Source: Nevskiaceae bacterium
GTDB lineage: Bacteria; Pseudomonadota; Gammaproteobacteria; Nevskiales; Nevskiaceae
Assembly (NCBI GenBank): GCA_035650495.1
Contig: DASRHK010000026.1
Coordinates: 9,856 to 73,855 of the forward strand
DNA: 64,000 nucleotides
Direction: 5' to 3'
This document shows positions 6,127-41,579 of the stretch, piece after piece (position 1 is the stretch's first letter; every line of letters begins with the position of its first letter). A model generated the notes under the pieces. That model worked only from the letters and a program-made list of their open reading frames with translations, was not told where the DNA came from and did not search any database. A program made the translations under genes and the position numbers.

Positions 6127-7038
6127 ATGTCACTGCACCGTCATCGCTTGCTGTTCGCCATTGCCGCGATCGCGCTCGCCGGCTGCGCAACCGATGCGCC
6201 GCTCGACAACGCCGCGATCGAGATGAAGGACCCGGCGATCGCGCCGACCGTCCACAACGCGGTGTTCCGCACCGAGGCGCCGAAGAAATCGGAAGCCGTC
6301 GATCAGGACGCCGATCCGCTGCTGAAGCTCGGTCCCGGCGACGCCGTGTCGGTGCAGGTGTTCGGACGGCCCGAGATGAGCACGACGACCTACGTCACCG
6401 ATCAGGGCACCATCGACGTTCCGCTCGCGGGCGCCGTGAAAGTCGAAGGCCTGTCGCCCGCGAAAGCGGCGCAGCGCGTCGCCTGGGCGCTGCGCGACGG
6501 ACAGTTCCTCAACGATCCGCACGTCAACATCACGCTGTCGAGCTTCAAGAGCCAGCAGGTCTCGGTGCTCGGCGAAGTGCACACGCCCGGCCGCTTCCCG
6601 ATCGAGTCGCGCACGACGCCGCTCGACCTCCTCGCCCAAGCCGGCGGGCCGACGGAGAACGCGTCCGACGTGATCTACGTCCTGCGTCCCGACGGCAAGG
6701 GCAACGTCTCGCGCTACGTCGTCGACCTCGCCTCGCTGCGCTCCGACGGCGCGCTGCCGCAGCTCTCGCTGCGCGGCGGCGATTCGCTCTACGTGCCGAA
6801 GGCCGATCAGTTCTACATCTACGGCGAAGTGCACACGCCGAACATGTACCGCCTCGAGCCCGGCATGACCGTGCTGCAGGCGATCGCGCGCGGCGGCGGC
6901 ATCACGCCGCGCGGCAGCCCGAGCCGCATCGAGATCAGCCGCCACGCCGAGGACGGCAAGCTCGTCACGGTGAGCGTCAAGCCCACCGACCCCGTGCAGC
7001 CCAACGACGTGATCCGTGTGAAGGAGAGGATTTTCTAA
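6127..7038 (+). CDS. polysaccharide export outer-membrane lipoprotein (Wza/EpsE-like)
   Basis: Lipobox IALAGC. Poly_export motif PGDAVSVQVFG. SLBB-like repeats (LDLLAQAGG..., MTVLQAIARGGGITP; LRGGDSLYVP). Confidence 0.9.
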   Translation: MSLHRHRLLFAIAAIALAGCATDAPLDNAAIEMKDPAIAPTVHNAVFRTEAPKKSEAVDQDADPLLKLGPGDAVSVQVFGRPEMSTTTYVTDQGTIDVPLAGAVKVEGLSPAKAAQRVAWALRDGQFLNDPHVNITLSSFKSQQVSVLGEVHTPGRFPIESRTTPLDLLAQAGGPTENASDVIYVLRPDGKGNVSRYVVDLASLRSDGALPQLSLRGGDSLYVPKADQFYIYGEVHTPNMYRLEPGMTVLQAIARGGGITPRGSPSRIEISRHAEDGKLVTVSVKPTDPVQPNDVIRVKERIF

Positions 7039-8507
7039 TGCAGCCCAACGATCCCAATGCCGGCGCGCTCGCCGTGCCCACGCAAGGCGGCGCGCTCGCG
7101 CATCCCTCCCCGTACGGCTACGGGATGGGACCCGCACCCGGCGCGCCCGCGGGCGGCATGTCGATCCCGCAGATCTTCGCGATCGGCCGCGCGCGCTGGC
7201 GACAGGGCGCGTGGATCGCCGGCGTGGTCATCGTGATGACCGCGCTGGTGACGCTGGTGATCCCGAAGACCTACACCGCGAGCGCGTCGGTGATGGTGAG
7301 CTACGACGTCAACGATCCGCTCGGCGGGCGCGAATTCCCCGCCGGCCTGCTGTCGAGCTACATGTCGACGCAGGTCGAGCTGGTCGGCAGCCCCGCCGTG
7401 CTGCTGCAGGTGGTGGATCAGCTCAAGCTCACGCAGAACAAGGACTACGCGAGCGGCTTCGACGGCGATCCGCGCGCGCTGCGCGAATGGGTGGCGAAGA
7501 AGCTCACGAAGGATCTGGAGATCAAGCAAGGCAACTACGGCAGCCAGCTGATCAACGTCACGGCGTCGGCGAACGACCCGCACCTCGCCGCGTCGATCGC
7601 CAACGAGGTGGTCGAGACCTATTCCGACCAGGCGCATCGCCGCCTGACCGATCCGGCCGCCGACACCGCGCATCGCTACGGCAAGGAGATCGAGGAGCTC
7701 AAGACCAAGGTGCAGGTCGCGCAGCAGAAGCTCGACGACTTCCGCCAGCGCACCAGCATGGTCGACATCCAGGCCAAGGCCGACGTCGACATCGCGCTGT
7801 TGAACGAGCTCGAGCACAAGCTGCTCGACGCCAGGAACGCGCGGCGCAGCGCGGAGTCGAAGCAGTCCTCCGATCCGGGCGTGAGCTCGGCGGTGCTCGG
7901 CTCGACCATGGTGCAGGGCCTGAAGGCGCAGCTCGCGACGCAGGAAGCGCGCATGGCCGAGCTGCGCACCACGCTCGGGCCGCGGCATCCGGACATCGTC
8001 CAGCTCCAGCAGCAGATCGACTCGACGCGCGCATCGCTCAACACCGAAGTGCATCGCTACGCGAGCAGCAACGACGCCGACCTCTCCCAGTCGAAGCAGC
8101 TCGAAGACAAGCTCTCCGCCGCCGTCGAGGAGCAGCGCAAGAAGCTCGTCGACATCCGTCGCATGCAGGACGAAGGCTCGCGCTACCAGATCGAGTTCGA
8201 CACCGCGCAGGCGGCTTACAAGAAAGCGCTCGAAGGCTATGAGCAGGTGATGATCGCCTCGAGCGGCCAGTACACCAACGTGCACATCGTCAATCGCGCG
8301 ACCCCGCCGCTCAAGGCCGCGAAGCCGAAATTCCTGATCAATCTTCTGATGGGCATCGTGTTCGGTGGCGCGCTCGGCGTGGCCATCCCGTTCGCCCGTG
8401 AGCTCGTCGGCCGCCGCGTGCGCTGCCGCGACGATCTGGAGCGGGATCACGGCATCCCGGTCCTCGTCGAGTTCGATCCCATGCCGGCCATCAGGAACGC
8501 ATCATGA
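7038..8507 (+). CDS. polysaccharide chain-length determinant / co-polymerase (Wzz, GumC/EpsF-like)
   Basis: ATG at 7038 overlaps the wza-like stop (TAATG). N-terminal TM WIAGVVIVMTALVTLVIP, a long coiled-coil periplasmic region, and C-terminal TM LLMGIVFGGALGVAIPF. Confidence 0.88.
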   Translation: MQPNDPNAGALAVPTQGGALAHPSPYGYGMGPAPGAPAGGMSIPQIFAIGRARWRQGAWIAGVVIVMTALVTLVIPKTYTASASVMVSYDVNDPLGGREFPAGLLSSYMSTQVELVGSPAVLLQVVDQLKLTQNKDYASGFDGDPRALREWVAKKLTKDLEIKQGNYGSQLINVTASANDPHLAASIANEVVETYSDQAHRRLTDPAADTAHRYGKEIEELKTKVQVAQQKLDDFRQRTSMVDIQAKADVDIALLNELEHKLLDARNARRSAESKQSSDPGVSSAVLGSTMVQGLKAQLATQEARMAELRTTLGPRHPDIVQLQQQIDSTRASLNTEVHRYASSNDADLSQSKQLEDKLSAAVEEQRKKLVDIRRMQDEGSRYQIEFDTAQAAYKKALEGYEQVMIASSGQYTNVHIVNRATPPLKAAKPKFLINLLMGIVFGGALGVAIPFARELVGRRVRCRDDLERDHGIPVLVEFDPMPAIRNAS

Positions 8508-34261: not shown

Positions 34262-34553
34262 AAAAGCAGTCTCCGACGAAACACTGCTGGTGTTGCATGT
34301 CCCGGCAGTGCTGGCTTTCGTCCTCAGCGCCACCGGGTTTCTCTTCCCTGGCGCCATTCAGCAAGAGGGATGCCAGCGGCGGATTTCGCTTGCGGCACTC
34401 GTGGCTTGCGTGCGGTTCCGCACCTCCACGGATCGCGAACGTACGGTGTTGCGTTGCCTTTCAGCGACGTGCGCAAACGGCGCATCGCTCAAGTCATTGA
34501 TCACACGTCGCTTTGCGCTGTCTCTGTGCAGCGACGCCGGGGCGTACAAAAGA

Positions 34554-34569
34554 TGTGACGCAGATCACG
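34554..34569. promoter_or_regulatory. CRP-type palindrome TGTGA-N6-TCACG
   Basis: tgtgacgcagatcacg lies in the 445-bp divergent intergenic region between the Crp-family gene and the receiver gene. It matches the TGTGA-N6-TCACA consensus at 9/10 positions. Confidence 0.4.
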
Positions 34570-34706
34570 TCCGCTGAGTACGGTTCCGTACGCAAGCGGC
34601 GCGGGTTCATTGCAGGCCGCAAGAGATAGGAAGTACTGCACGCGCGCCGCGCGCAGCGACCGATCGAATAATCAAAGCGTTCGCAATCGCCGGCGCCGGA
34701 GCGTGT

Positions 34707-35120
34707 ATGAGCAAGATCCTGGTCATCGACGACGATCCGATGATCGTCGCCATCTACCGCAACGCGTTCTCCAAGCAGGGCTTCGAGGTCGACGTCGCCG
34801 AGGACGGCGCGGTGGGCCTGCAGAAATTCCATCTGGCCAAGCCCGACATCGTCCTGCTCGACATCAACATCCCCGGCTTGAACGGGCTCGACTGGCTGCA
34901 CACGATCCGCCACGAGCCGGGGCTCGATAAATTCCCGGTCGTCGTGCTCACCGGCGGCAACACCCGCGCCAACGTCATGTCGGCGTGGAGCTCCGGCGCC
35001 ACCTGCGTGATGTTGAAGTCGCGCGACGAGCCGCAACGCGTGATCGACGTGGTGAAAGCGGTCCTCGGCAATCACGGGCCGCAGACCTGGGGAGCCGACG
35101 CCGGCGCGCGGCATCACTAG
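34707..35120 (+). CDS. single-domain response regulator (CheY-like receiver)
   Basis: ILVIDDDP, DIVLLDINIPGLNG, PVVVLTG, and K in ...MLKS. Confidence 0.88.
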   Translation: MSKILVIDDDPMIVAIYRNAFSKQGFEVDVAEDGAVGLQKFHLAKPDIVLLDINIPGLNGLDWLHTIRHEPGLDKFPVVVLTGGNTRANVMSAWSSGATCVMLKSRDEPQRVIDVVKAVLGNHGPQTWGADAGARHH

Positions 35121-35192
35121 CAACCGCAGCTTGCGGCACCCGCGGCGGCGGGACATGATCGTTCCCCCGCCACCGGACTGGTCAGCCGCTGC

Positions 35193-37703
35193 ATGGGCAA
35201 GCGCTCGCCTGCACCGACGCAGACGCATCCCGAAAGTCGTCGCTGGTTGTTCGCCAACGCGGTCCTCGACGAAAGCTCGCTCGAGCTGCGCATCGGCGGC
35301 GACCGCGTCGACCTCGAGCACAAGCCGTTCGAGGTCCTGCGCTTCCTCCTGCAGCACGCGGGAGAAGTCGTCACCAAGGACGAGCTGCTCGCCGCCGTCT
35401 GGCCAGGCCGCGTCCTCTCCGACACCGTGCTCGCCAAAAGCATCGGGCGGCTGCGCAAGGCGCTCGGCGACAAGGACGAGACGGTCATCAAGACCGTGCA
35501 TCGATACGGCTACCGCCTGGTTGCCCCCGTCCACGTCGAGGTCGAGCACGCGCCGGAGCCGACGCGCTTCGATTTCGGCGTCGGCGATCGCCCGGTGCAT
35601 CGGCCGCTGTGGAGCCTGGTGCGGCGTCTCGGCAGCGGCGGCCATGGCGAAGCCTGGCTCGGCGTCCATGACAAGACCCGCGAGCAGCGCGTGTTCAAGT
35701 TCGCCGTCGACGAGCCCTCGCTCGCCGCGCTGAAGCGCGAAGTCACCCTGTTCCGATTCCTCAACGACAGCCTCGGCGCCAAGGCGCGCATCGTCGCGAT
35801 CCTCGACTGGAACTTCGAGCAGCCGCCCTGCTTCATCGAGAGCGCGTACATCGCCGGCGGCAGCCTGCTCGACTGGGCGGAGCGCAGCGGCGGGCTCGAC
35901 CGCGTTCCGCTCGGCGTGCGCATCGACGTCGCCGCGCAGATCGCGGAAGCGCTCGGCGCCGTGCATTCGGTCGGAGCGCTGCACAAGGACCTCAAGCCGT
36001 CCAACGTTCTCGTCGATCCGGGTGCCAACGCAACGCCACTGATCCGGCTCGCCGACTTCGGCAGCGGCGGCATGCTCGATCCGCGCAAGCTCGAGGCGCT
36101 CGGCATCACCCGCCTCGGCTTCACCAAGACGCTGACCGCGCTGAATGCGACGTCCGGCGGCACGCCGCTCTATCTCGCGCCGGAATTGCTGGCGGGCCAG
36201 CCGCCGACGGTGAAGGCGGACATCTACGCGCTCGGCGTCGTGCTCTATCAGCTGGTGGCCGGCAATTTCCGCCGGCCGATGGCGCATGGCTGGGAGCGCG
36301 ACATCGCCGACGAGCTCCTCGCCGAGTGCATCAACGACGCCGCGCAGGGCGATCCCGAACGCCGCCTGGGCGATGCGGCGATGCTCGCGCTGCGATTGCG
36401 CTCGCTGGAAGAGGAGCGCGAGCGTCGACGGCGTGAGCGCTCGACGCGTGAGAGAGCGCAAGCGGTCGAGCGCGCGGAGGCGGCCGCCGCCACCAGCCGC
36501 GCGGTCGCCGATTTCCTCAGCAAGGACCTGTTCTCCGTGGTCGGCGCAAAGCCGCTGCGCGATCTGACTGCGCGCGAGCTTCTCGACGCCGCTTCCGCAA
36601 AGCTCGCAGATCGTTTCGACGACATGCCGCTCGCCGCCGCGCAGATCCATTCCGCGCTCGGCAACGCGTTCTTCAACATGCAGGCGCTCGACGCCGCCGA
36701 GAAGCATTTCGAGGAAGCGGTGGGGATCTATGAGCGGCTCGAAGGTCCGGCCTCGATCGACGTCGTCGCCAACGCCGCGCGGCTGGTCTCGGTGAAGACC
36801 GTCCTCGGCAAGTTCGACGTGCTGCCCCGCTTTCGCCTGGTGCTCAGGCAAGCGCAGGCGCAGCTCGGCAGCACGGGCGAGGTGCTCGATCTCGTGCATG
36901 CGCTTGCGACCGCGGCGCTGGTCCGAGGCTACTGGCGTGAAGCGGCCGATCACTTCGGCGAGCTCGTCGACGCCTCGCTGTCGAACGGCGACGCGACGAA
37001 AGTCGGCAATGCGCAGACCTATCTGGCGTTCTGCCTCATGCGGCTCGGCGAGCTCGAGCAAGCGCTGGCGCTCGTGAGCGATGCCAAGACCGCGCTCACC
37101 GGCGCGCTGGGTCCGTCGCAGATGCCGGTCGCGCTGGCTCAGGAGCTTCGCGGCCGCGTTCTCGTCGAGATGTCGCGCTTCGAGGAAGCCGAAAGCGATC
37201 TCACGGCTTCGCTCGAGATCATCCGCGCATGGTCGCCGGAAGACCGTTCGCCGCTGGTGCTTTCCGGCGAGCTCGCGATCGGGGTCCTGCGGCTGCGGCA
37301 ACGTCGCTTCGCCGAGGCCGTCGCGATCCTCGAGCGCGTCGTCGACGGCATCGCAACCTGGGGCTGGTCCGCGCAGCGCGACGAGAGCGCCGAAGCGCGG
37401 ATGGTGCTCGCGGAAGCCCTCGAAGGCGCCGGCCGCCTGCGCGACGCCGAAAGCCAGATGCGGGCGGCGCTGGAAGTTGCGCAGCAGGCGCATGGAGCGC
37501 AGCACCCGCTGCTGCAGCAGATCCGCTTGAGCCTCGCGCGGATCCATCGCGAAGCGGGCGATGACGGTCCGGCGCGCGAGCTCCTCGCGTCGATCGACAA
37601 GGACGTGCTGCGCCAGCTGCGGCCGGGGCATCCGTTGCTGGTCGAGCTGCGTCGCCTCGAGCGCGCATCGCAAGTCGCAAGAGGCGCGGGACCCGCGAGC
37701 TGA
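35193..37703 (+). CDS. winged-helix DNA-binding / Ser-Thr protein kinase / TPR fusion protein
   Basis: N-terminal trans_reg_C (LEHKPFEVLRFLL...LLAAVWPG...HRYGYRL). Kinase motifs LGSGGHGEAW, VFKFA, HKDLKPSNVLV, LADFGSG, GTPLYLAPE. About 400 aa of TPR-like helical repeats follow. Confidence 0.9.
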   Translation: MGKRSPAPTQTHPESRRWLFANAVLDESSLELRIGGDRVDLEHKPFEVLRFLLQHAGEVVTKDELLAAVWPGRVLSDTVLAKSIGRLRKALGDKDETVIKTVHRYGYRLVAPVHVEVEHAPEPTRFDFGVGDRPVHRPLWSLVRRLGSGGHGEAWLGVHDKTREQRVFKFAVDEPSLAALKREVTLFRFLNDSLGAKARIVAILDWNFEQPPCFIESAYIAGGSLLDWAERSGGLDRVPLGVRIDVAAQIAEALGAVHSVGALHKDLKPSNVLVDPGANATPLIRLADFGSGGMLDPRKLEALGITRLGFTKTLTALNATSGGTPLYLAPELLAGQPPTVKADIYALGVVLYQLVAGNFRRPMAHGWERDIADELLAECINDAAQGDPERRLGDAAMLALRLRSLEEERERRRRERSTRERAQAVERAEAAAATSRAVADFLSKDLFSVVGAKPLRDLTARELLDAASAKLADRFDDMPLAAAQIHSALGNAFFNMQALDAAEKHFEEAVGIYERLEGPASIDVVANAARLVSVKTVLGKFDVLPRFRLVLRQAQAQLGSTGEVLDLVHALATAALVRGYWREAADHFGELVDASLSNGDATKVGNAQTYLAFCLMRLGELEQALALVSDAKTALTGALGPSQMPVALAQELRGRVLVEMSRFEEAESDLTASLEIIRAWSPEDRSPLVLSGELAIGVLRLRQRRFAEAVAILERVVDGIATWGWSAQRDESAEARMVLAEALEGAGRLRDAESQMRAALEVAQQAHGAQHPLLQQIRLSLARIHREAGDDGPARELLASIDKDVLRQLRPGHPLLVELRRLERASQVARGAGPAS

Positions 37704-37719
37704 GCTTCAGCCCGAAGCG

Positions 37720-37733
37720 CCTCCAATTGGAGG
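37720..37733. promoter_or_regulatory. perfect 14-bp palindrome CCTCCAATTGGAGG (copy 1), 40 nt upstream of the radical SAM gene
   Basis: Read directly from the sequence. An identical copy lies at 42576-42589, and an 11/14 match at 40872-40885. Confidence 0.5.
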
Positions 37734-37772
37734 GCGATTCGCGGGCTCCGGAAGCGCACCCTGTGCGCAGCC

Positions 37773-38744
37773 ATGAAACTCGCGCTGCTCATCACCGCTC
37801 ACTGCAACGCCGGCTGCACGCACTGCAGCACCAGCTGCGGTCCGCATCGAAGCGAGCATCTGTCGCGCGAGCAGATCTTCCGCCTGATCGACGAAGCGGC
37901 GGAGCTCAACGGCAGCGAGAAGCTGCGCGTGCTGCTAAGCGGCGGCGAGCCGTTCCTCGCCTTCGACTTGCTGCTCGACGTCGTCCGCCATGCGCGGGAC
38001 AAGCGCGCGATCGTCACCTGCGTGACCAACGCGTATTGGGCGACGTCGATCGAGAAGGCGCGCGATCTGCTGCGTCAGCTCAAGGCAGCGGGCTTGCGCA
38101 GCTTCGCGATCAGCACCAGCCGCTTCCATCAGCAGTTCATCAAGAGACAGCGCGTCGAGCGCGCTTTGCAAGCGAGCCGCGACGTGGGATTGCGCTGCAC
38201 CCTGAAGTACGTTCGCGTGCGCGACGATTCGCTGGACGAGCGCGGCGTCCGGTCATGGGCGACCAGCGCCGGCGCGCACGACGTGCAGGATTTCCCGCTC
38301 CTGCCCCATCTGCGCGCGGGCGCGAGCGCGCCGGAATCGAGCTACATCCGTGACGCCGGCGTGCCGACGGGAACCTGTCCCGGCGCGATCCTGACGGTGC
38401 GCGAGGACGGACGCGCATTCACGTGCTGCACGCCCGGCGCCTTCACCACGCTCCTGCAAGTGGGGCACGCAACGCGCGACTCGCTGCGCGACGTCAATGC
38501 GCGCTTCCACGTCGGCGGCGTGCAGCAGATCCTGCGCCGCAAGGGGCCCGGCGAGTTCCTCGAAGCCATCCGCGCACGAGCGCAGGCGCATCGGCTGCGC
38601 TCGAGCTACGCCAGCGTCTGCGATCTGTGCACGCACATCGCAGCCGATCCGGTCCTTGGCGCCATCGCGACCGAAGTTGCCGACGCTTTCGAAGTGCGAC
38701 AAGTGAGCGCGCTTGTCGAATCCGCCATCACCGTCACCTGCTAG
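37773..38744 (+). CDS. radical SAM enzyme with C-terminal Cys-rich (SPASM/twitch-like) region; candidate peptide maturase
   Basis: CNAGCTHC (Cx3Cx2C) at residues 11-18. SGGEPFL SAM-binding motif. C-terminal TCPGAILTVREDGRAFTCC and VCDLC. Confidence 0.85.
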   Translation: MKLALLITAHCNAGCTHCSTSCGPHRSEHLSREQIFRLIDEAAELNGSEKLRVLLSGGEPFLAFDLLLDVVRHARDKRAIVTCVTNAYWATSIEKARDLLRQLKAAGLRSFAISTSRFHQQFIKRQRVERALQASRDVGLRCTLKYVRVRDDSLDERGVRSWATSAGAHDVQDFPLLPHLRAGASAPESSYIRDAGVPTGTCPGAILTVREDGRAFTCCTPGAFTTLLQVGHATRDSLRDVNARFHVGGVQQILRRKGPGEFLEAIRARAQAHRLRSSYASVCDLCTHIAADPVLGAIATEVADAFEVRQVSALVESAITVTC

Positions 38745-38757
38745 AGGAGAAACATCC

Positions 38758-39060
38758 ATGTCGCTTACGATCGCAGAACACACCGAGCTGCTCGGCCGCA
38801 TCGCGTCCGACCGCCAGTTCCGCAGCCTCCTGCTCACGAGCCCCCGCAAGGCCGCCTGCGAGCTCGGCATCACGCTCTCCGAAAGCGAGGAAGGCCAGAT
38901 CCTTTCCGGGCTGCGCGCCATCCACCGCGACGGCACCGACCGACTGCCGAGCGATGCGCAGACGGCGCCCTTCCTGTTCTCCGTCTTGCTCACGCACGAC
39001 GATGCGGGAGACGAGGATGAGGATCCGCCGAAGGGATCAGAGCGCCGTCGGCCCCACTAG
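38758..39060 (+). CDS. 100-aa peptide with NHLP/Nif11-like leader; candidate RiPP precursor
   Basis: AGGAGA RBS 7 nt upstream, and the start is 13 nt after the radical SAM stop. ELLGRIASDRQFRSLLLTSPRKAACELGITLSE fits the NHLP leader pattern (D-x-x-F-K/R-x-x-L-L-x-x-P-K/R-x-A-x-x-E-x-G-I/V-x-L/I-x-E). High GC3. Confidence 0.6.
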   Translation: MSLTIAEHTELLGRIASDRQFRSLLLTSPRKAACELGITLSESEEGQILSGLRAIHRDGTDRLPSDAQTAPFLFSVLLTHDDAGDEDEDPPKGSERRRPH

Positions 39061-40836
39061 ATTCCAGGCGCGCAGCGATCCGAAGAACGCGAGCAGCAGC
39101 GCGCTGAAGAGCGCGAGGTCCTGACGCTCGGCCTGGGTCCACTGCTCGTGGACCCAGGCGTGCAGGGTCAGCTGCAGAATGATGCGCGTCAGCTGCGAAG
39201 CAAGGACGATGAGGGCGAGTCCGTTCCGGAAGGATTCCGGATACGCATAGACGAGCGCGATCCCGCCCGTCGCGAAGCTCTCTCGCAGGAGCGACCATCC
39301 CGTGAGATTCAGCGCGGCCACCATCGCCGCGATCTCCATCACAGGGCGCGCGCAGGGACTCGCGCGACTCGCTGCTCGGCTCGTGGCGTGCCACGCCAGC
39401 ACGAGGTGAAAGCCGGTCGCGGCGTGCGCCAGCAATTCGCGATGGAACGTCGGCGCCTGCGACGCCTCGACCTTGTACGCCGGAGCGAACGCTGCCGGCC
39501 CGAGCATGTGGCTGACCTTGCCGTCCGCATCCTCCACGAAAGCAACCATCTCGTGGCTGCCGTCCTGGCGGAACACGCCGCGGTCGATCTCCGACCATTC
39601 CCGGCGGCCGGCGAGATTGGAGATCTGCAGCGTCCCGCGAGGCGTCGCGGACACTTTCATCTCGTAATCCGGCATCGCCAGCAGCAGGCATTTCTCCTGG
39701 CGGCGATGCGAATGCGGCGTCGCGAGATAGGTGCCGACGTAGCGGTTCGCGGACGTCGATCGCAGCGCCACGCTGATCGAGCGCCGCTGCGGCAACAGCG
39801 CGTCCATCAAGGTCGCGACGAACGCCTGCAGCCGCCGCGCGGGAATCCGCGTGTTCACGACGACGAAGATGCCCACCTGTTCTTCGGGCACCAGCACGAG
39901 CTGCGAGACAAAGCAGATCGTCGCGCCCTGATGCCCCACCGCGCGGCGTCCCCGCAGATTGATTTCATAGAAGCCGAGCCCGGCGCCGTTGACCATCGGA
40001 TGCGGATCCAGCACGCGGCTGTGCATGAGCCGCATCGTGCTCGCCTGCAGTGTCGAGACCCCGGTGCCGAGATGAGCGCGCATGAAGCGGAGCATGTCGT
40101 CGGCCGTCGTGCTCATGCTTCCGGCAGGCCCGATCGAATGAAAGTACTCGAAGCCGTGCTCGATCAAGGCGCCATCGCTGCCGCGGTGATAGCCCGCGGC
40201 GAGCTGGCGCGCCATCTCGCGAGGCAGCGGCTCGCGAAAGGAGCTTCGGTCCATGCCGAGCGGCTCGAACAGATGGCGCTCGACGCAATCGTCGAAGGGC
40301 ATGCGGGCGCGGCGCGCCACGATGTGACCTGCGAGCGCGATCCCCCAGTTCGAGTACGACGCTCCGCGACCGTCGCAGAAATCGACGGTGGGCGCCCGGA
40401 CTTGGGCGGGCTTGTTGATCGCGAGATTGTCGGCGAGCGGCAAGAGATCGGCGGCGCTTCGCTTGACCATGTAGCCGAGCTGGTTCTCCTCGAAGCCCGC
40501 CGTGTGCGTCAGGAGATTCCTGAGCGTGACCGGACGCCCGTAGCCCGGCGGGATCTGCAGGCGCGGCTCCAGGTACTGATTGATGTCCGCGTCGAGATCC
40601 AGCTCGCCGCGCTCGACCAGCTGCATCGCCGCGGTCGCGGTGACGAGCTTCGACGTCGAGCCGATGCGGAACAACGTGCTCCGGCTCGCCTTCGCGCGCG
40701 TGCGCACGTCTGCGAAGCCGGCGCCTGTGGAAAGCGAGCGCGAGCCGGGACCGGCGATCGCGAGGGCGAGACCAGCCACCTCCAGCGCAGGGATCGATTC
40801 CTCGATGAGCTGCTCCAGGCGTGCCGTCCCTAGCAT
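39037..40836 (-). CDS. beta-lactamase-fold serine hydrolase (class C / PBP4*-like) with C-terminal transmembrane helices
   Basis: SxxK motif IGSTSK, YSNWG (Y-x-N) and HQGA motifs. The C-terminal 120 aa contain 3-4 hydrophobic helices. The 3' end overlaps the peptide gene by 24 nt. Confidence 0.85.
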   Translation of the reverse strand: MLGTARLEQLIEESIPALEVAGLALAIAGPGSRSLSTGAGFADVRTRAKASRSTLFRIGSTSKLVTATAAMQLVERGELDLDADINQYLEPRLQIPPGYGRPVTLRNLLTHTAGFEENQLGYMVKRSAADLLPLADNLAINKPAQVRAPTVDFCDGRGASYSNWGIALAGHIVARRARMPFDDCVERHLFEPLGMDRSSFREPLPREMARQLAAGYHRGSDGALIEHGFEYFHSIGPAGSMSTTADDMLRFMRAHLGTGVSTLQASTMRLMHSRVLDPHPMVNGAGLGFYEINLRGRRAVGHQGATICFVSQLVLVPEEQVGIFVVVNTRIPARRLQAFVATLMDALLPQRRSISVALRSTSANRYVGTYLATPHSHRRQEKCLLLAMPDYEMKVSATPRGTLQISNLAGRREWSEIDRGVFRQDGSHEMVAFVEDADGKVSHMLGPAAFAPAYKVEASQAPTFHRELLAHAATGFHLVLAWHATSRAASRASPCARPVMEIAAMVAALNLTGWSLLRESFATGGIALVYAYPESFRNGLALIVLASQLTRIILQLTLHAWVHEQWTQAERQDLALFSALLLAFFGSLRAWNLVGPTAL

Positions 40837-40871
40837 CGGATGAATCTACGGGCTTCGTCCTCGCGCGGAAG

Positions 40872-40885
40872 CCCCCAATTGAAGC
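40872..40885. promoter_or_regulatory. degenerate copy (11/14) of the CCTCCAATTGGAGG palindrome
   Basis: cccccaattgaagc lies in the divergent region between the serine hydrolase (start 40836, - strand) and the LuxR gene (start 40992, + strand). Confidence 0.25.
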
Positions 40886-40991
40886 AACGGCGTCGCGATC
40901 AAGATTCTTTCAACGCTTCTTCAACCTTCGGTCAGGACTCTCGCGTTCCTGGGCAATACCGTGACTGCGGAGAGTGTGGTTGGAGGTTCCG

Positions 40992-41579
40992 ATGACTTTC
41001 ATTCAAGACCGCCCTTCCGGCCGCGAATCCGAAGTCCTTCTTGAAACGCTGGACCGCATGTGGGAGGCCGTTGCGATGCTGGGCCATTCCCGGCAGATCG
41101 TCTTCGCCAACCGTGCGGCCGCTCAGATCCTGCAACGCGGAGCCGGCATCGGCTTGTCGCCCGACGGACGCCTGATCACGACGCCCGAAGCGTCGGAGGC
41201 GGTCGAGCGTGTGCTCTGCGACAAAGCGCCGCCGGCGCCGGTCGCCGTTCCGCGCACGGACGAGCCGCCGCTCGTGCTCAACCTGCATCCGCTGCCCGAT
41301 GCATTGAAGGGCGGCTTCGGCGCGGTCGCGCTGATGTTCATCAGCGATCCCGCGCGGAAACCGGCGGATCAGAGCGCTGCGCTGCGATCGGCGTTCGGGC
41401 TGACCAACGCCGAGGCGCGCGTCGCGCAGTCGCTCAGCGAGGGCGCGTCGCTCAAGCAGATCGCCTGGGCGAACCACATCACCTACGAGACCGTCCGCTC
41501 CCATCTGCGGCGGACCCTCGGGAAGGTCGGCGTGCGCAGGCAGGCCGAGCTCGTCCGGATCGCCCATGCGCTGCGCTGA
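40992..41579 (+). CDS. LuxR-family transcriptional regulator (PAS-like N-terminus + HTH_LuxR)
   Basis: GGAGG RBS. C-terminal LTNAEARVAQSLSEGASLKQIAWANHITYETVRSHLRRTLGKVGV. Confidence 0.85.
   Translation: MTFIQDRPSGRESEVLLETLDRMWEAVAMLGHSRQIVFANRAAAQILQRGAGIGLSPDGRLITTPEASEAVERVLCDKAPPAPVAVPRTDEPPLVLNLHPLPDALKGGFGAVALMFISDPARKPADQSAALRSAFGLTNAEARVAQSLSEGASLKQIAWANHITYETVRSHLRRTLGKVGVRRQAELVRIAHALR

What the first reader, a model, noticed from the sequence alone, without database searches (positions are those of the whole stretch)
37773..39060. Radical SAM enzyme coupled to an NHLP-like 100-aa peptide with a Cys-free acidic core: candidate new RiPP system
A 323-aa radical SAM protein carries Cx3Cx2C at residues 11-18, a GGEPFL motif, and extra C-terminal cysteines (TCPG...G...FTCC and VCDLC), suggesting a reduced SPASM/twitch cluster. 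Thirteen nt after its stop, preceded by an AGGAGA RBS, begins a 100-codon ORF. Residues 8-45 of that ORF fit the nitrile-hydratase-like leader peptide pattern used by proteusins and other RiPPs: EHTELLGRIASDRQFRSLLLTSPRKAACELGITLSESEE. The putative core is LSGLRAIHRDGTDRLPSDAQTAPFLFSVLLTHDDAGDEDEDPPKGSERRRPH. It has no Cys, which argues against sactipeptide or ranthipeptide thioethers. It has no Gly-Gly cleavage site and no YG splice motif. No cyclodehydratase, LanM or C39-ABC exporter is nearby. The remaining options are epimerisation, C-methylation, or C-C/C-O crosslinks at the His-x-Asp (HRD, HDD) or Phe-x-Phe/Ser sites. Radical SAM maturases for Nif11/NHLP-class peptides exist, but this short enzyme, this core and this gene context do not match any class I can name.
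Basis: partly seen in the sequence, partly recalled or inferred. Interest (0 to 1): 0.8.

Follow-up and report, generated by a model that had tools for sequence, protein, structure and literature searches.

The report
EpeE-like epimerase with NHLP-type precursor peptide
This is a real, conserved gene cassette in soil Gammaproteobacteria in which a relative of the Bacillus peptide epimerase EpeE/YydG sits next to a small precursor peptide with a nitrile-hydratase-like leader, probably making a peptide with D-amino acids, a pairing I did not find described in the papers searched.

Summary
The radical SAM gene is 37773-38744 (323 aa). An AGGAGA ribosome-binding site follows, and the 100-codon ORF runs 38758-39060. 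The ORF is a real gene: five orthologues exist, dN/dS is 0.16-0.25, and the block PFxFSVLLTHDD is invariant. Its residues 10-45 match NHLP-clan leader models (NF038399, E 7.5e-8, below cut-off).

It is a full-length homologue of the peptide epimerase EpeE/YydG. EpeE is the only PDB hit (E 1.9e-21). The auxiliary-cluster cysteines and the H-donor Cys (C219 = EpeE C223) are present.

It is not an orthologue. It scores 125 bits against a 300-bit cut-off, EpeE Asp210 aligns to Ile, there is no EpeP/EpeAB, and the host is Gram-negative.

Across about 35 related loci the enzyme almost always follows a wHTH-Ser/Thr-kinase-TPR protein. NHLP-type peptides co-occur with a membrane-anchored S12 (D-peptidase-like) hydrolase. 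Two homologues have enzyme and peptide in one reading frame.

Most likely the enzyme epimerises hydrophobic core residues (inferred). I rate it a new variant of a known kind, of moderate to high interest.

The parts
35193..37703 (+). 836-aa protein: OmpR/PhoB-type winged-helix DNA-binding domain, then a Ser/Thr protein kinase, then TPR repeats. It is the conserved upstream partner of the radical SAM gene.
   Evidence: Pfam Trans_reg_C, Pkinase and TPR_12/TPR_MalT. Present immediately upstream on the same strand in 26 of 28 family loci that have upstream DNA, at 28-81% identity. HKDLKPxN is present in the 25 loci where this part of the kinase gene is held; the downstream DFG (DLG in L014, L016) is seen in 24, the exception being the frameshifted L002.
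37773..38744 (+). 323-aa radical SAM enzyme of the EpeE/YydG type. It has the Cx3Cx2C cluster (C11, C15, C18), one auxiliary [4Fe-4S] site (C202, C218, C283, C286) and a putative H-atom donor, C219.
   Evidence: TIGR04078 E 4.6e-36, 124.9 bits, full length. PDB hits are EpeE only, E 1.9e-21 for the single sequence and 1e-41 for the family profile. The cluster cysteines are invariant in 81 homologues, and C219 is present in 70 of 81.
38745..38750 (+). Ribosome-binding site AGGAGA, 7 nt before the peptide ATG.
   Evidence: Read directly from the sequence. GAGGAGAAACATCC precedes the ATG in L083 and GAGGAAACACGC in L081.
38758..39060 (+). 100-aa precursor peptide: NHLP-clan leader, conserved hydrophobic core, acidic tail, and RPH at the C-terminus.
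   Evidence: Five orthologues. dN/dS 0.16-0.25. Annotated by NCBI as a hypothetical protein.
38785..38892 (+). Leader segment (residues 10-45) that matches the NHLP-clan profiles.
   Evidence: NF038399 E 7.5e-8, TIGR04509 1.2e-4, TIGR03793 0.02, Pfam PF14407 9.5e-5. A leader HMM built from 11 such peptides finds, in about 1.3 Mb of loci searched in six frames, only ORFs close to EpeE-like genes, from directly adjacent to about 0.9 kb away (L003).
38968..39003 (+). Invariant core block P71-F-x-F-S-V-L-L-T-H-D-D82, the proposed site of modification.
   Evidence: Identical in all five orthologues except for L/I/V at position 73. Other family peptides carry a hydrophobic V/I/L/F patch at the same place.
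39037..40836 (-). 599-aa S12 (beta-lactamase-fold) serine hydrolase with C-terminal hydrophobic helices. It is convergent with the peptide gene and overlaps it by 24 nt.
   Evidence: Pfam Beta-lactamase E 1.4e-58. Motifs STSK60, YSN161 and HQG302. Best PDB relatives are Pab87 and alkaline D-peptidase. Found with 11 of 15 NHLP-type loci and 0 of 13 other family loci.

Best explanation
A four-gene RiPP-type cassette: regulator, maturase, precursor and hydrolase.

1. The 100-aa product of 38758-39060 is a precursor peptide with a helical NHLP-clan leader of about 60 residues.
2. The radical SAM enzyme cleaves SAM at the C11/C15/C18 cluster. It abstracts the C-alpha hydrogen of one or more hydrophobic residues in the invariant core PFxFSVLLTHDD. 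Cys219 then returns a hydrogen atom from the opposite face, giving D-residues, as EpeE does with Val and Ile of EpeX. The C202/C218/C283/C286 cluster would re-reduce the thiyl radical.
3. The S12 hydrolase has relatives that are D-stereospecific peptidases. It then either trims the modified peptide at or near the D-residue (leader or tail removal) or protects the producer.
4. The wHTH-kinase-TPR protein is the cassette's own transcriptional regulator.

Shown here: the genes, their homologies, the catalytic residues, the linkage, and purifying selection. Inferred: the chemistry, the target residues, and the roles of the hydrolase and the kinase.
For: - Enzyme homology: TIGR04078 (YydG epimerase) is by far the best family, at 124.9 bits against at most 41 bits for any other. 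EpeE is the only PDB sequence hit and covers residues 5-288. The profile E-value is 1e-41.
- Enzyme fold: the model of homologue P0009 has pLDDT about 98 over the enzyme domain. It matches EpeE at TM 0.83-0.85, while the next fold scores 0.55.
- Catalytic residues: C219 aligns with EpeE C223, the experimentally supported H-atom donor (PMC13012085). The spacing C202-x15-C218 is identical to EpeE C206-x15-C222.
- Enzyme-peptide linkage:
  - A small ORF lies next to the enzyme gene in nearly all family loci.
  - It is NHLP-type in 15 of them.
  - Two divergent homologues, P0009 from a cultured Fontimonas and P0012, have enzyme and peptide in one reading frame.
  - More distant EpeE-like genes (L027, L091, L118) also sit next to NHLP peptides. 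One has a GG site followed by the core FIFKNH.
- The peptide is under purifying selection.
- S12 enzymes acting on D-residue-containing peptides are documented: ClbP, BogQ, TriF, Lip3/Lip7 (PMC12903863). S12 presence tracks the peptide type.
- The kinase is cassette-specific. Genomes with two cassettes have two kinases.
Against: - The enzyme is below the YydG equivalog cut-off (125 against 300 bits) and only about 20-25% identical to EpeE.
- EpeE Asp210, proposed to supply the proton when the thiyl radical is reduced (PMC13012085), aligns to Ile206 and is hydrophobic throughout the family.
- 11 of 81 homologues lack the donor Cys, so the chemistry may not be uniform in the clade.
- The peptide's NHLP scores are below the curated cut-offs.
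- No exporter or recognised leader peptidase was seen.
- The window's S12 lacks the signal peptide that its homologues in other loci have.
- No experiment exists for any member.
Confidence: 0.6

Rival explanations
1. Same enzyme-peptide pair, different radical chemistry. After C-alpha (or C-beta) hydrogen abstraction the radical is not quenched stereo-inverted. It leads instead to a crosslink, a desaturation or a backbone scission.
For: Asp210 of EpeE is not conserved. 11 of 81 family enzymes lack the donor Cys. Two of these, L002 and L003, have Cys in their peptide cores, which hints at plasticity. Mutating C223 in EpeE causes peptide breakage (PMC8326336).
Against: The window enzyme keeps the donor Cys in the same CC motif and with the same spacing as EpeE. 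The core has no Cys and no obvious crosslink partners conserved across the family. There is no B12 domain for methylation.
Confidence: 0.22
2. The small protein is not a substrate. It is a folded NHLP-like accessory or regulatory partner, for example a ligand or anti-activator of the kinase-TPR protein, and the radical SAM enzyme acts on something else.
For: The most constant partner of the enzyme is the kinase-TPR protein, not a particular peptide. The downstream ORFs are very diverse, and some are about 200 aa. NHLP leaders are structured domains (PMC12537861 abstract), and the model gives helices at pLDDT 67-89.
Against: In-frame enzyme-peptide fusions exist. The most conserved part of the peptide is the short hydrophobic block after the leader, not the leader itself. 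EpeE-type enzymes are known only as peptide modifiers (PMC8326336). NHLP peptides recur next to more distant EpeE-like genes that lack the kinase (L012 and L017).
Confidence: 0.12
3. The 100-codon ORF is a chance open frame in a G+C-rich genome.
For: Long spurious ORFs are common here. The 3' end overlaps the S12 gene by 24 nt.
Against: dN/dS is 0.16-0.25 with dS 0.7-1.6. There are five orthologues with an invariant block. There is a ribosome-binding site and significant NHLP-clan profile hits.
Confidence: 0.02

Closest known systems
Epipeptide system of Bacillus subtilis (epeXEPAB / yydFGHIJ); enzyme EpeE = YydG, PDB 8AI1-8AI6
   Same: Enzyme size (323 against 319 aa) and fold. Radical SAM cluster plus a single auxiliary cluster in an extended twitch domain. 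A CC motif carrying the H-atom donor Cys. No RRE domain. A hydrophobic core as the likely target. The precursor gene is adjacent (PMC13012085).
   Different: About 20-25% identity, and below the equivalog cut-off. Asp210 is replaced by Ile. The precursor is 100 aa with an NHLP-clan leader, not the 49-aa EpeX. There is no EpeP protease and no EpeAB ABC transporter. Instead there are a kinase-TPR regulator and an S12 hydrolase. The host is a Gammaproteobacterium, whereas epipeptides are described as restricted to Bacillota (PMC13012085).
Proteusins (polytheonamides, landornamide): NHLP/Nif11 precursors epimerised by PoyD/OspD-type radical SAM enzymes
   Same: An NHLP-type leader on the precursor. 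The expected product is a peptide with D-residues at hydrophobic positions, installed irreversibly by a radical SAM enzyme with a Cys H-donor (PMC8326336).
   Different: The epimerase family is unrelated. PoyD-type enzymes have one cluster and an RRE. The window enzyme's best match is TIGR04078, and TIGR04517 (PoyD) is not among its 25 best families.
S12 D-stereospecific peptidases attached to natural-product pathways (ClbP, BogQ, TriF, Lip3/Lip7)
   Same: Beta-lactamase fold with the SxxK, YxN and (H/K)xG motifs. Genomic or ecological coupling to peptides that contain D-residues. A C-terminal membrane domain, as in ClbP.
   Different: Those enzymes act on non-ribosomal peptides. ClbP is not among the 60 best PDB hits. 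There are four C-terminal helices here rather than the three of ClbP (my recollection for ClbP). The window copy has no signal peptide.

Membership tests
YydG/EpeE radical SAM peptide epimerase (TIGR04078) | Cx3Cx2C radical SAM cluster near the N-terminus | tested here: met
   C11, C15 and C18 are invariant in 81 homologues.
YydG/EpeE radical SAM peptide epimerase (TIGR04078) | One auxiliary [4Fe-4S] cluster in an extended twitch (T-SPASM) domain | tested here: met
   C202, C218, C283 and C286 are invariant and align with the EpeE cysteines at identical spacing. This rests on alignment only; no metal analysis was possible.
YydG/EpeE radical SAM peptide epimerase (TIGR04078) | H-atom donor Cys223 (second Cys of the CC motif) | tested here: met
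   Window C219 aligns with C223. It is present in 70 of 81 family members. Its role is taken from PMC13012085.
YydG/EpeE radical SAM peptide epimerase (TIGR04078) | Asp210, the proposed proton donor for thiyl reduction | tested here: not met
   It aligns without gaps to Ile206, and the position is hydrophobic across the family. Its role is taken from PMC13012085.
YydG/EpeE radical SAM peptide epimerase (TIGR04078) | Score at or above the curated equivalog cut-off (300 bits) | tested here: not met
   124.9 bits. Eight other clade members score 97.8-140.8 bits.
YydG/EpeE radical SAM peptide epimerase (TIGR04078) | EpeE fold | tested here: met
   The model of the 55%-identical homologue P0009 matches 8AI1-8AI6 at TM 0.83-0.85, against 0.55 for the next fold. 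The window protein itself was not modelled.
YydG/EpeE radical SAM peptide epimerase (TIGR04078) | L-to-D epimerisation activity on the adjacent peptide | not testable with these tools
   Needs co-expression, D2O labelling and chiral analysis.
Epipeptide gene cluster (epeXEPAB) | Short EpeX-like precursor, EpeP membrane protease, EpeAB ABC transporter; Bacillota host | tested here: not met
   The precursor is 100 aa and of the NHLP clan. The neighbours are a kinase-TPR protein, an S12 hydrolase, LuxR-type and receiver proteins. The host is a Nevskiaceae MAG.
NHLP leader peptide family (TIGR03793) / NHLP clan (NF038399, TIGR04509) | Profile score above the curated cut-off | tested here: not met
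   NF038399 scores 32.3 against 40, TIGR04509 22 against 34, TIGR03793 14.7 against 50.9. The E-values are 7.5e-8, 1.2e-4 and 0.02, and the same three models hit all 10 related peptides. The L017 peptide passes NF038399 at 45.3. This supports clan-level relatedness, not family membership.
NHLP leader peptide family (TIGR03793) / NHLP clan (NF038399, TIGR04509) | Double-glycine type leader cleavage site with a C39 peptidase/ABC exporter | tested here: not met
   There is no GG in the peptide and no C39-ABC gene was seen at 33-44 kb. A more distant locus, L027, does have VSGG.
Proteusins | PoyD/OspD-type radical SAM epimerase (TIGR04517) with an RRE | tested here: not met
   TIGR04517 is not among the 25 best families for the enzyme, and the best is TIGR04078.
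S12 D-stereospecific peptidases (ClbP-like) | SxxK, YxN and (H/K)xG catalytic motifs plus a C-terminal membrane anchor | tested here: met
   STSK60, YSN161 and HQG302. Hydrophobic C-terminal helices are weak in the window copy and clear (four) in L001, L005, L006, L008 and L010.
S12 D-stereospecific peptidases (ClbP-like) | Specific relatedness to ClbP, and D-specific cleavage | tested here: inconclusive
   The best PDB relatives are Pab87 (2qmi), IS11 and alkaline D-peptidase (4y7p). ClbP is not in the best 60. Activity is not testable here.

The most novel reading that the evidence does not exclude
A Gram-negative 'NHLP-epipeptide' pathway forming a closed circuit. An EpeE-type epimerase writes D-residues into the hydrophobic core of an NHLP-clan precursor. 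A membrane-anchored S12 D-stereospecific peptidase reads those D-residues to release (or detoxify) the product; I found no report of such a peptidase in RiPP maturation. The mature peptide is then sensed by the TPR domain of the cassette's own wHTH-Ser/Thr-kinase regulator, which would make it a peptide-signalling module rather than only an antibiotic. Clade members that lost the donor Cys would have switched to other C-alpha radical outcomes.
Probability: 0.15. Interest if true: 0.8.

Novelty: new variant of a known kind. Interest (0 to 1): 0.55.

Why it matters
Two kinds of radical SAM peptide epimerase are known. PoyD-type enzymes act on NHLP/Nif11 precursors (proteusins). EpeE acts on a short-leader precursor, and a 2026 paper describes epipeptides as restricted to Bacillota (PMC13012085).

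This cassette combines the EpeE-type catalyst with the proteusin-type leader in Proteobacteria. The same combination also occurs in Verrucomicrobiota, Planctomycetota and Alphaproteobacteria. If the chemistry is confirmed, several things follow:

- It extends epipeptide-like D-amino-acid RiPPs to Gram-negative bacteria.
- It gives a compact, RRE-less epimerase that must recognise a structured NHLP leader.
- It offers a natural enzyme-substrate fusion for structural work.
- It suggests a RiPP role for S12 D-peptidases, so far tied to non-ribosomal peptides.
- Variants lacking the donor Cys are a natural experiment on how the fate of a C-alpha radical is controlled.

Two cultured strains, Fontimonas sp. 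SYSU GA230001 and Solimonas aquatica DSM 25927, carry family members, so the hypothesis can be tested directly.

Tried and rejected
- (protein 2) and one search used 38759 as the start and so read the wrong frame. Their 'no hit' results are void. One of the three large protein searches was lost this way.
- The promoter/terminator scan of 34400-41200 found nothing above shuffled expectation.
- I tested whether the S12 protein is specifically ClbP-like. ClbP is not among the 60 best PDB hits, so I claim only S12 or D-peptidase-like.
- I modelled the natural fusion P0009 to see how leader and core dock on the enzyme. The tool returns no coordinates or PAE. The linker (residues 327-353) and the core (after about residue 430) have low confidence, so nothing can be said about docking.
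- The word-indexed search suggested a sharp gap between this clade (at least 191 bits) and everything else (at most 95 bits). The exhaustive search does not bear this out. It shows about 25 clusters at E below 1e-50, followed by a continuum of full-length EpeE-like proteins at 25-35% identity. I therefore dropped the idea of an isolated clade.
- The response-regulator, Crp-like and other window neighbours are not conserved with the cassette. The LuxR-type gene recurs only in L004 (64% identity) and in the close relatives L081/L082.
- C-methylation and Cys-based thioether chemistry were rejected for this peptide. There is no B12 domain and no Cys in the core.
Full report
**Observation**

The window is 67.7% G+C. 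It carries a 323-aa ORF at 37773-38744. After the stop (TAG, 38742-38744) comes AGGAGA (38745-38750), and then a 100-codon ORF runs from the ATG at 38758 to 39060.

I first translated the small ORF from 38759, which is one base off. The negative results for the peptide are therefore void. All later calls use 38758.

**The small ORF is a gene**

- Enzymes 80% identical to the window's are each followed, on other contigs, by a called gene of 102-112 aa and then a convergent beta-lactamase-fold gene.
- The five orthologous peptides are P0121-P0125, of which P0123 is the window's own, annotated by NCBI as a hypothetical protein of a Nevskiaceae MAG.
- They share ELLGRIA(S/T)DR(Q/R)FR in the leader and an invariant block PF(L/I/V)FSVLLTHDD. 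An acidic tail follows, and four of the five end in RPH.
- Pairwise dN/dS is 0.16-0.25 at dS 0.7-1.6, the same range as the enzyme's 0.12-0.21.

**The leader is NHLP-like**

In the right frame, residues 10-45 match three NCBIfam models and one Pfam model:

| Model | E-value | Bits | Cut-off |
|---|---|---|---|
| NF038399 (Os1348 family NHLP clan) | 7.5e-8 | 32.3 | 40 |
| TIGR04509 (NHLP-related RiPP peptide) | 1.2e-4 | 22 | 34 |
| TIGR03793 (NHLP leader) | 0.02 | 14.7 | 50.9 |
| Pfam PF14407 | 9.5e-5 | 23.1 | 48 |

The same models hit all nine other peptides I took from related loci, and one of these passes the NF038399 cut-off. So the relationship is at clan level and below family thresholds.

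I built a leader HMM from 11 such peptides and ran it over six-frame translations of the window, the 35 family loci and 128 other loci. That is about 1.3 Mb in all. It found only ORFs close to EpeE-like genes, from directly adjacent to about 0.9 kb away in L003.

**The enzyme is an EpeE/YydG homologue**

- TIGR04078 (YydG family radical SAM peptide epimerase) matches at E 4.6e-36 and 124.9 bits over profile positions 7-292 of 309. The next family scores 41 bits.
- Against all PDB sequences the only hits are the EpeE entries 8AI1-8AI6. The E-value is 1.9e-21 for the single sequence and 1e-41 for a 27-sequence profile.
- An AlphaFold2 model of the homologue P0009 (55% identical) has pLDDT about 98 over the enzyme domain. 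Its nine best PDB matches are all EpeE, at TM 0.83-0.85 and rmsd 3.0 A. The next fold, BlsE, scores 0.55.
- EpeE has a radical SAM cluster, one auxiliary cluster in an extended twitch domain, and Cys223 as the H-atom donor that completes the inversion (PMC13012085; PMC8326336).
- In the window protein C202, C218, C283 and C286 align with the auxiliary-cluster cysteines. C219 aligns with C223. The C-x15-CC spacing is identical.
- In 81 homologues the seven cluster cysteines are invariant, and the donor Cys is present in 70.

**It is not an orthologue**

- The score is far below the 300-bit equivalog cut-off, as it is for eight other clade members tested.
- Asp210 of EpeE, proposed to deliver the proton when the thiyl radical is reduced, aligns to Ile206. 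This position is hydrophobic across the family.
- There is no EpeP protease or EpeAB transporter.
- The host is a Gammaproteobacterium. A 2026 paper states that epipeptides are restricted to Bacillota.
- The exhaustive search of 1.84 billion representatives gives about 25 clusters at E below 1e-50. Beyond them lies a continuum of full-length EpeE-like proteins at 25-35% identity. The clade is thus one branch of a large, mostly unstudied EpeE-like group.

**Neighbourhood**

I collected 25 family loci from species genomes, 7 from metagenomes and 3 through exact-protein look-ups. Most come from Nevskiales and Steroidobacteraceae. Single loci come from Verrucomicrobiia, Planctomycetota and Alsobacter.

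1. *Kinase-TPR protein.* An 830-890-aa protein with an OmpR-type wHTH, a Ser/Thr kinase and TPR repeats lies immediately upstream on the same strand. This holds in 26 of 28 loci that have upstream DNA. The catalytic loop HKDLKPxN is present in the 25 loci where this part of the gene is held, and the downstream DFG in 24 (DLG in two; not seen in the frameshifted L002). MAGs with two cassettes have two such kinases.
2. *Small ORF.* One lies next to the enzyme gene nearly everywhere (upstream of it in L006), but its type varies. It is NHLP-type in 15 loci. Elsewhere it is a roughly 200-aa 'LPPWGQ' protein, or a basic roughly 100-aa ORF followed by a caspase-like gene.
3. *S12 hydrolase.* It accompanies 11 of 15 NHLP-type loci, in either orientation, and none of 13 other loci with enough downstream DNA. 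Fisher's test gives about 6e-5, but the loci are phylogenetically non-independent.
4. *Fusions.* In P0009 (cultured Fontimonas sp. SYSU GA230001) and P0012 (74% identical to it), enzyme and peptide form one open reading frame. An internal ATG is preceded by GGGGAGA.

**The S12 protein**

It has the STSK, YSN and HQG motifs. Its best solved relatives are Pab87, IS11, alkaline D-peptidase and a DD-carboxypeptidase.

Homologues in L001, L005, L006, L008 and L010 have a signal peptide and four C-terminal transmembrane helices. The window and L081 copies lack the signal peptide and have weaker helices.

S12 enzymes that cut at D-residues of natural-product peptides are documented: ClbP, BogQ, TriF and Lip3/Lip7 (PMC12903863). 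All of them act on non-ribosomal peptides.

**Mechanism proposed**

The precursor is bound through its helical leader. The enzyme abstracts the C-alpha hydrogen of one or more residues in F72-T79, and C219 donates a hydrogen from the other face. The S12 hydrolase then processes the D-containing peptide or degrades it. The kinase-TPR protein controls transcription.

The homologies, the residues and the linkage are shown here. The chemistry, the sites and the roles of the partners are inferred. I put 0.6 on this overall reading, 0.22 on a different radical outcome on the same peptide, 0.12 on the small protein not being the substrate, and 0.02 on a spurious ORF.

**Novelty**

Full-text searches for YydG with NHLP, for EpeE-like or YydG-like enzymes, and for RiPP epimerases with S12 or D-peptidases found no description of this pairing. 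The only trace is a passing 'YydG-like' annotation next to a Vibrio bacteriocin gene. The library lacks many subscription papers, including the EpeE structure paper, so earlier bioinformatic mention cannot be excluded.

I rate this a new variant of a known kind, the radical SAM peptide epimerase RiPPs. Interest is 0.55. It is a solid, testable genome-mining lead that crosses two RiPP paradigms and breaks a stated taxonomic limit, but no chemistry has been shown.

Noticed in passing
P0021 = L002 6001-6996 and P0022 = L003 6001-7008 (plus P0010, P0017, P0025, P0030, P0038, P0043, P0103, P0109, P0116): 11 of 81 family enzymes have A, G, S or P, or a gap, instead of the Cys aligned with the EpeE donor C223. 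The L002 and L003 peptides have Cys in their cores (NLGVCAVNH; GPLCPKND...AWDCSK). This might mark a switch from epimerisation to capture of the C-alpha radical by a thiol.
   Followed up: partly
L001 6001-7353 (Fontimonas sp. SYSU GA230001) and protein P0012: The enzyme and the NHLP-type peptide form one open reading frame of 450 and 454 aa. The linker is basic, and an internal ATG is preceded by GGGGAGA. This is either a natural enzyme-substrate fusion or a lost stop codon with independent initiation.
   Followed up: partly
L011 6960-7544, L013, L086 2947-3534, L088 5985-6584, L090, L020: Family loci without an NHLP-type peptide carry a roughly 200-aa downstream protein with a conserved 'LPPWGQ(M/F)(D/E/N)...W...LWP(V/T/E)Y' region of unknown function.
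   Followed up: no
L015 about 6962-7310, L025 6974-7830, L084 4361-4970: A third cassette type: a roughly 100-aa ORF with a very basic N-terminus. In L025 and L084 a caspase-like (C14) ORF (AVLVGIN.Y...L.GC.NDV) follows it.
   Followed up: no
L012 831-1800 (Alsobacter) and L017 7042-7840 (Planctomycetota): These loci lack the kinase and the S12 gene. The peptide ends in ...VAW(V/I)-COOH, and the next ORF resembles the N-terminus of B12-binding radical SAM RiPP maturases (judged by eye, not searched).
   Followed up: no
L027 5076-5853, L091 4771-5016, L118 293-559: More distant EpeE-like genes (about 30% identity) also sit next to NHLP peptides. L027 has two canonical ones, and one of them has a VSGG site followed by the six-residue core FIFKNH.
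   Followed up: partly
window 39037-39060: The 3' ends of the peptide gene and the convergent S12 gene overlap by 24 nt. The same overlap (21-42 nt) occurs in the close relatives L081, L083 and the P0002 contig.
   Followed up: no
window 39037-40836 compared with L001, L005, L006, L008, L010: The S12 hydrolase of the window and L081 clade has no signal peptide, has weaker C-terminal helices, and is convergent. In L001, L006, L008 and L010 it is co-directional with a signal peptide and four clear transmembrane helices. L005 has the signal peptide and helices but is convergent. The catalytic domain may therefore lie on different sides of the membrane.
   Followed up: partly
L004 7319-7810: In this NHLP-type locus a TonB-dependent-receptor-like ORF (judged by eye from the plug-domain sequence) follows the peptide, where the S12 gene lies in other loci.
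   Followed up: no
L002 1880-4439: The kinase-TPR gene of this Panacagrimonas MAG is split into two frames (two tblastn segments). This is either a frameshift, a pseudogene, or an assembly error.
   Followed up: no
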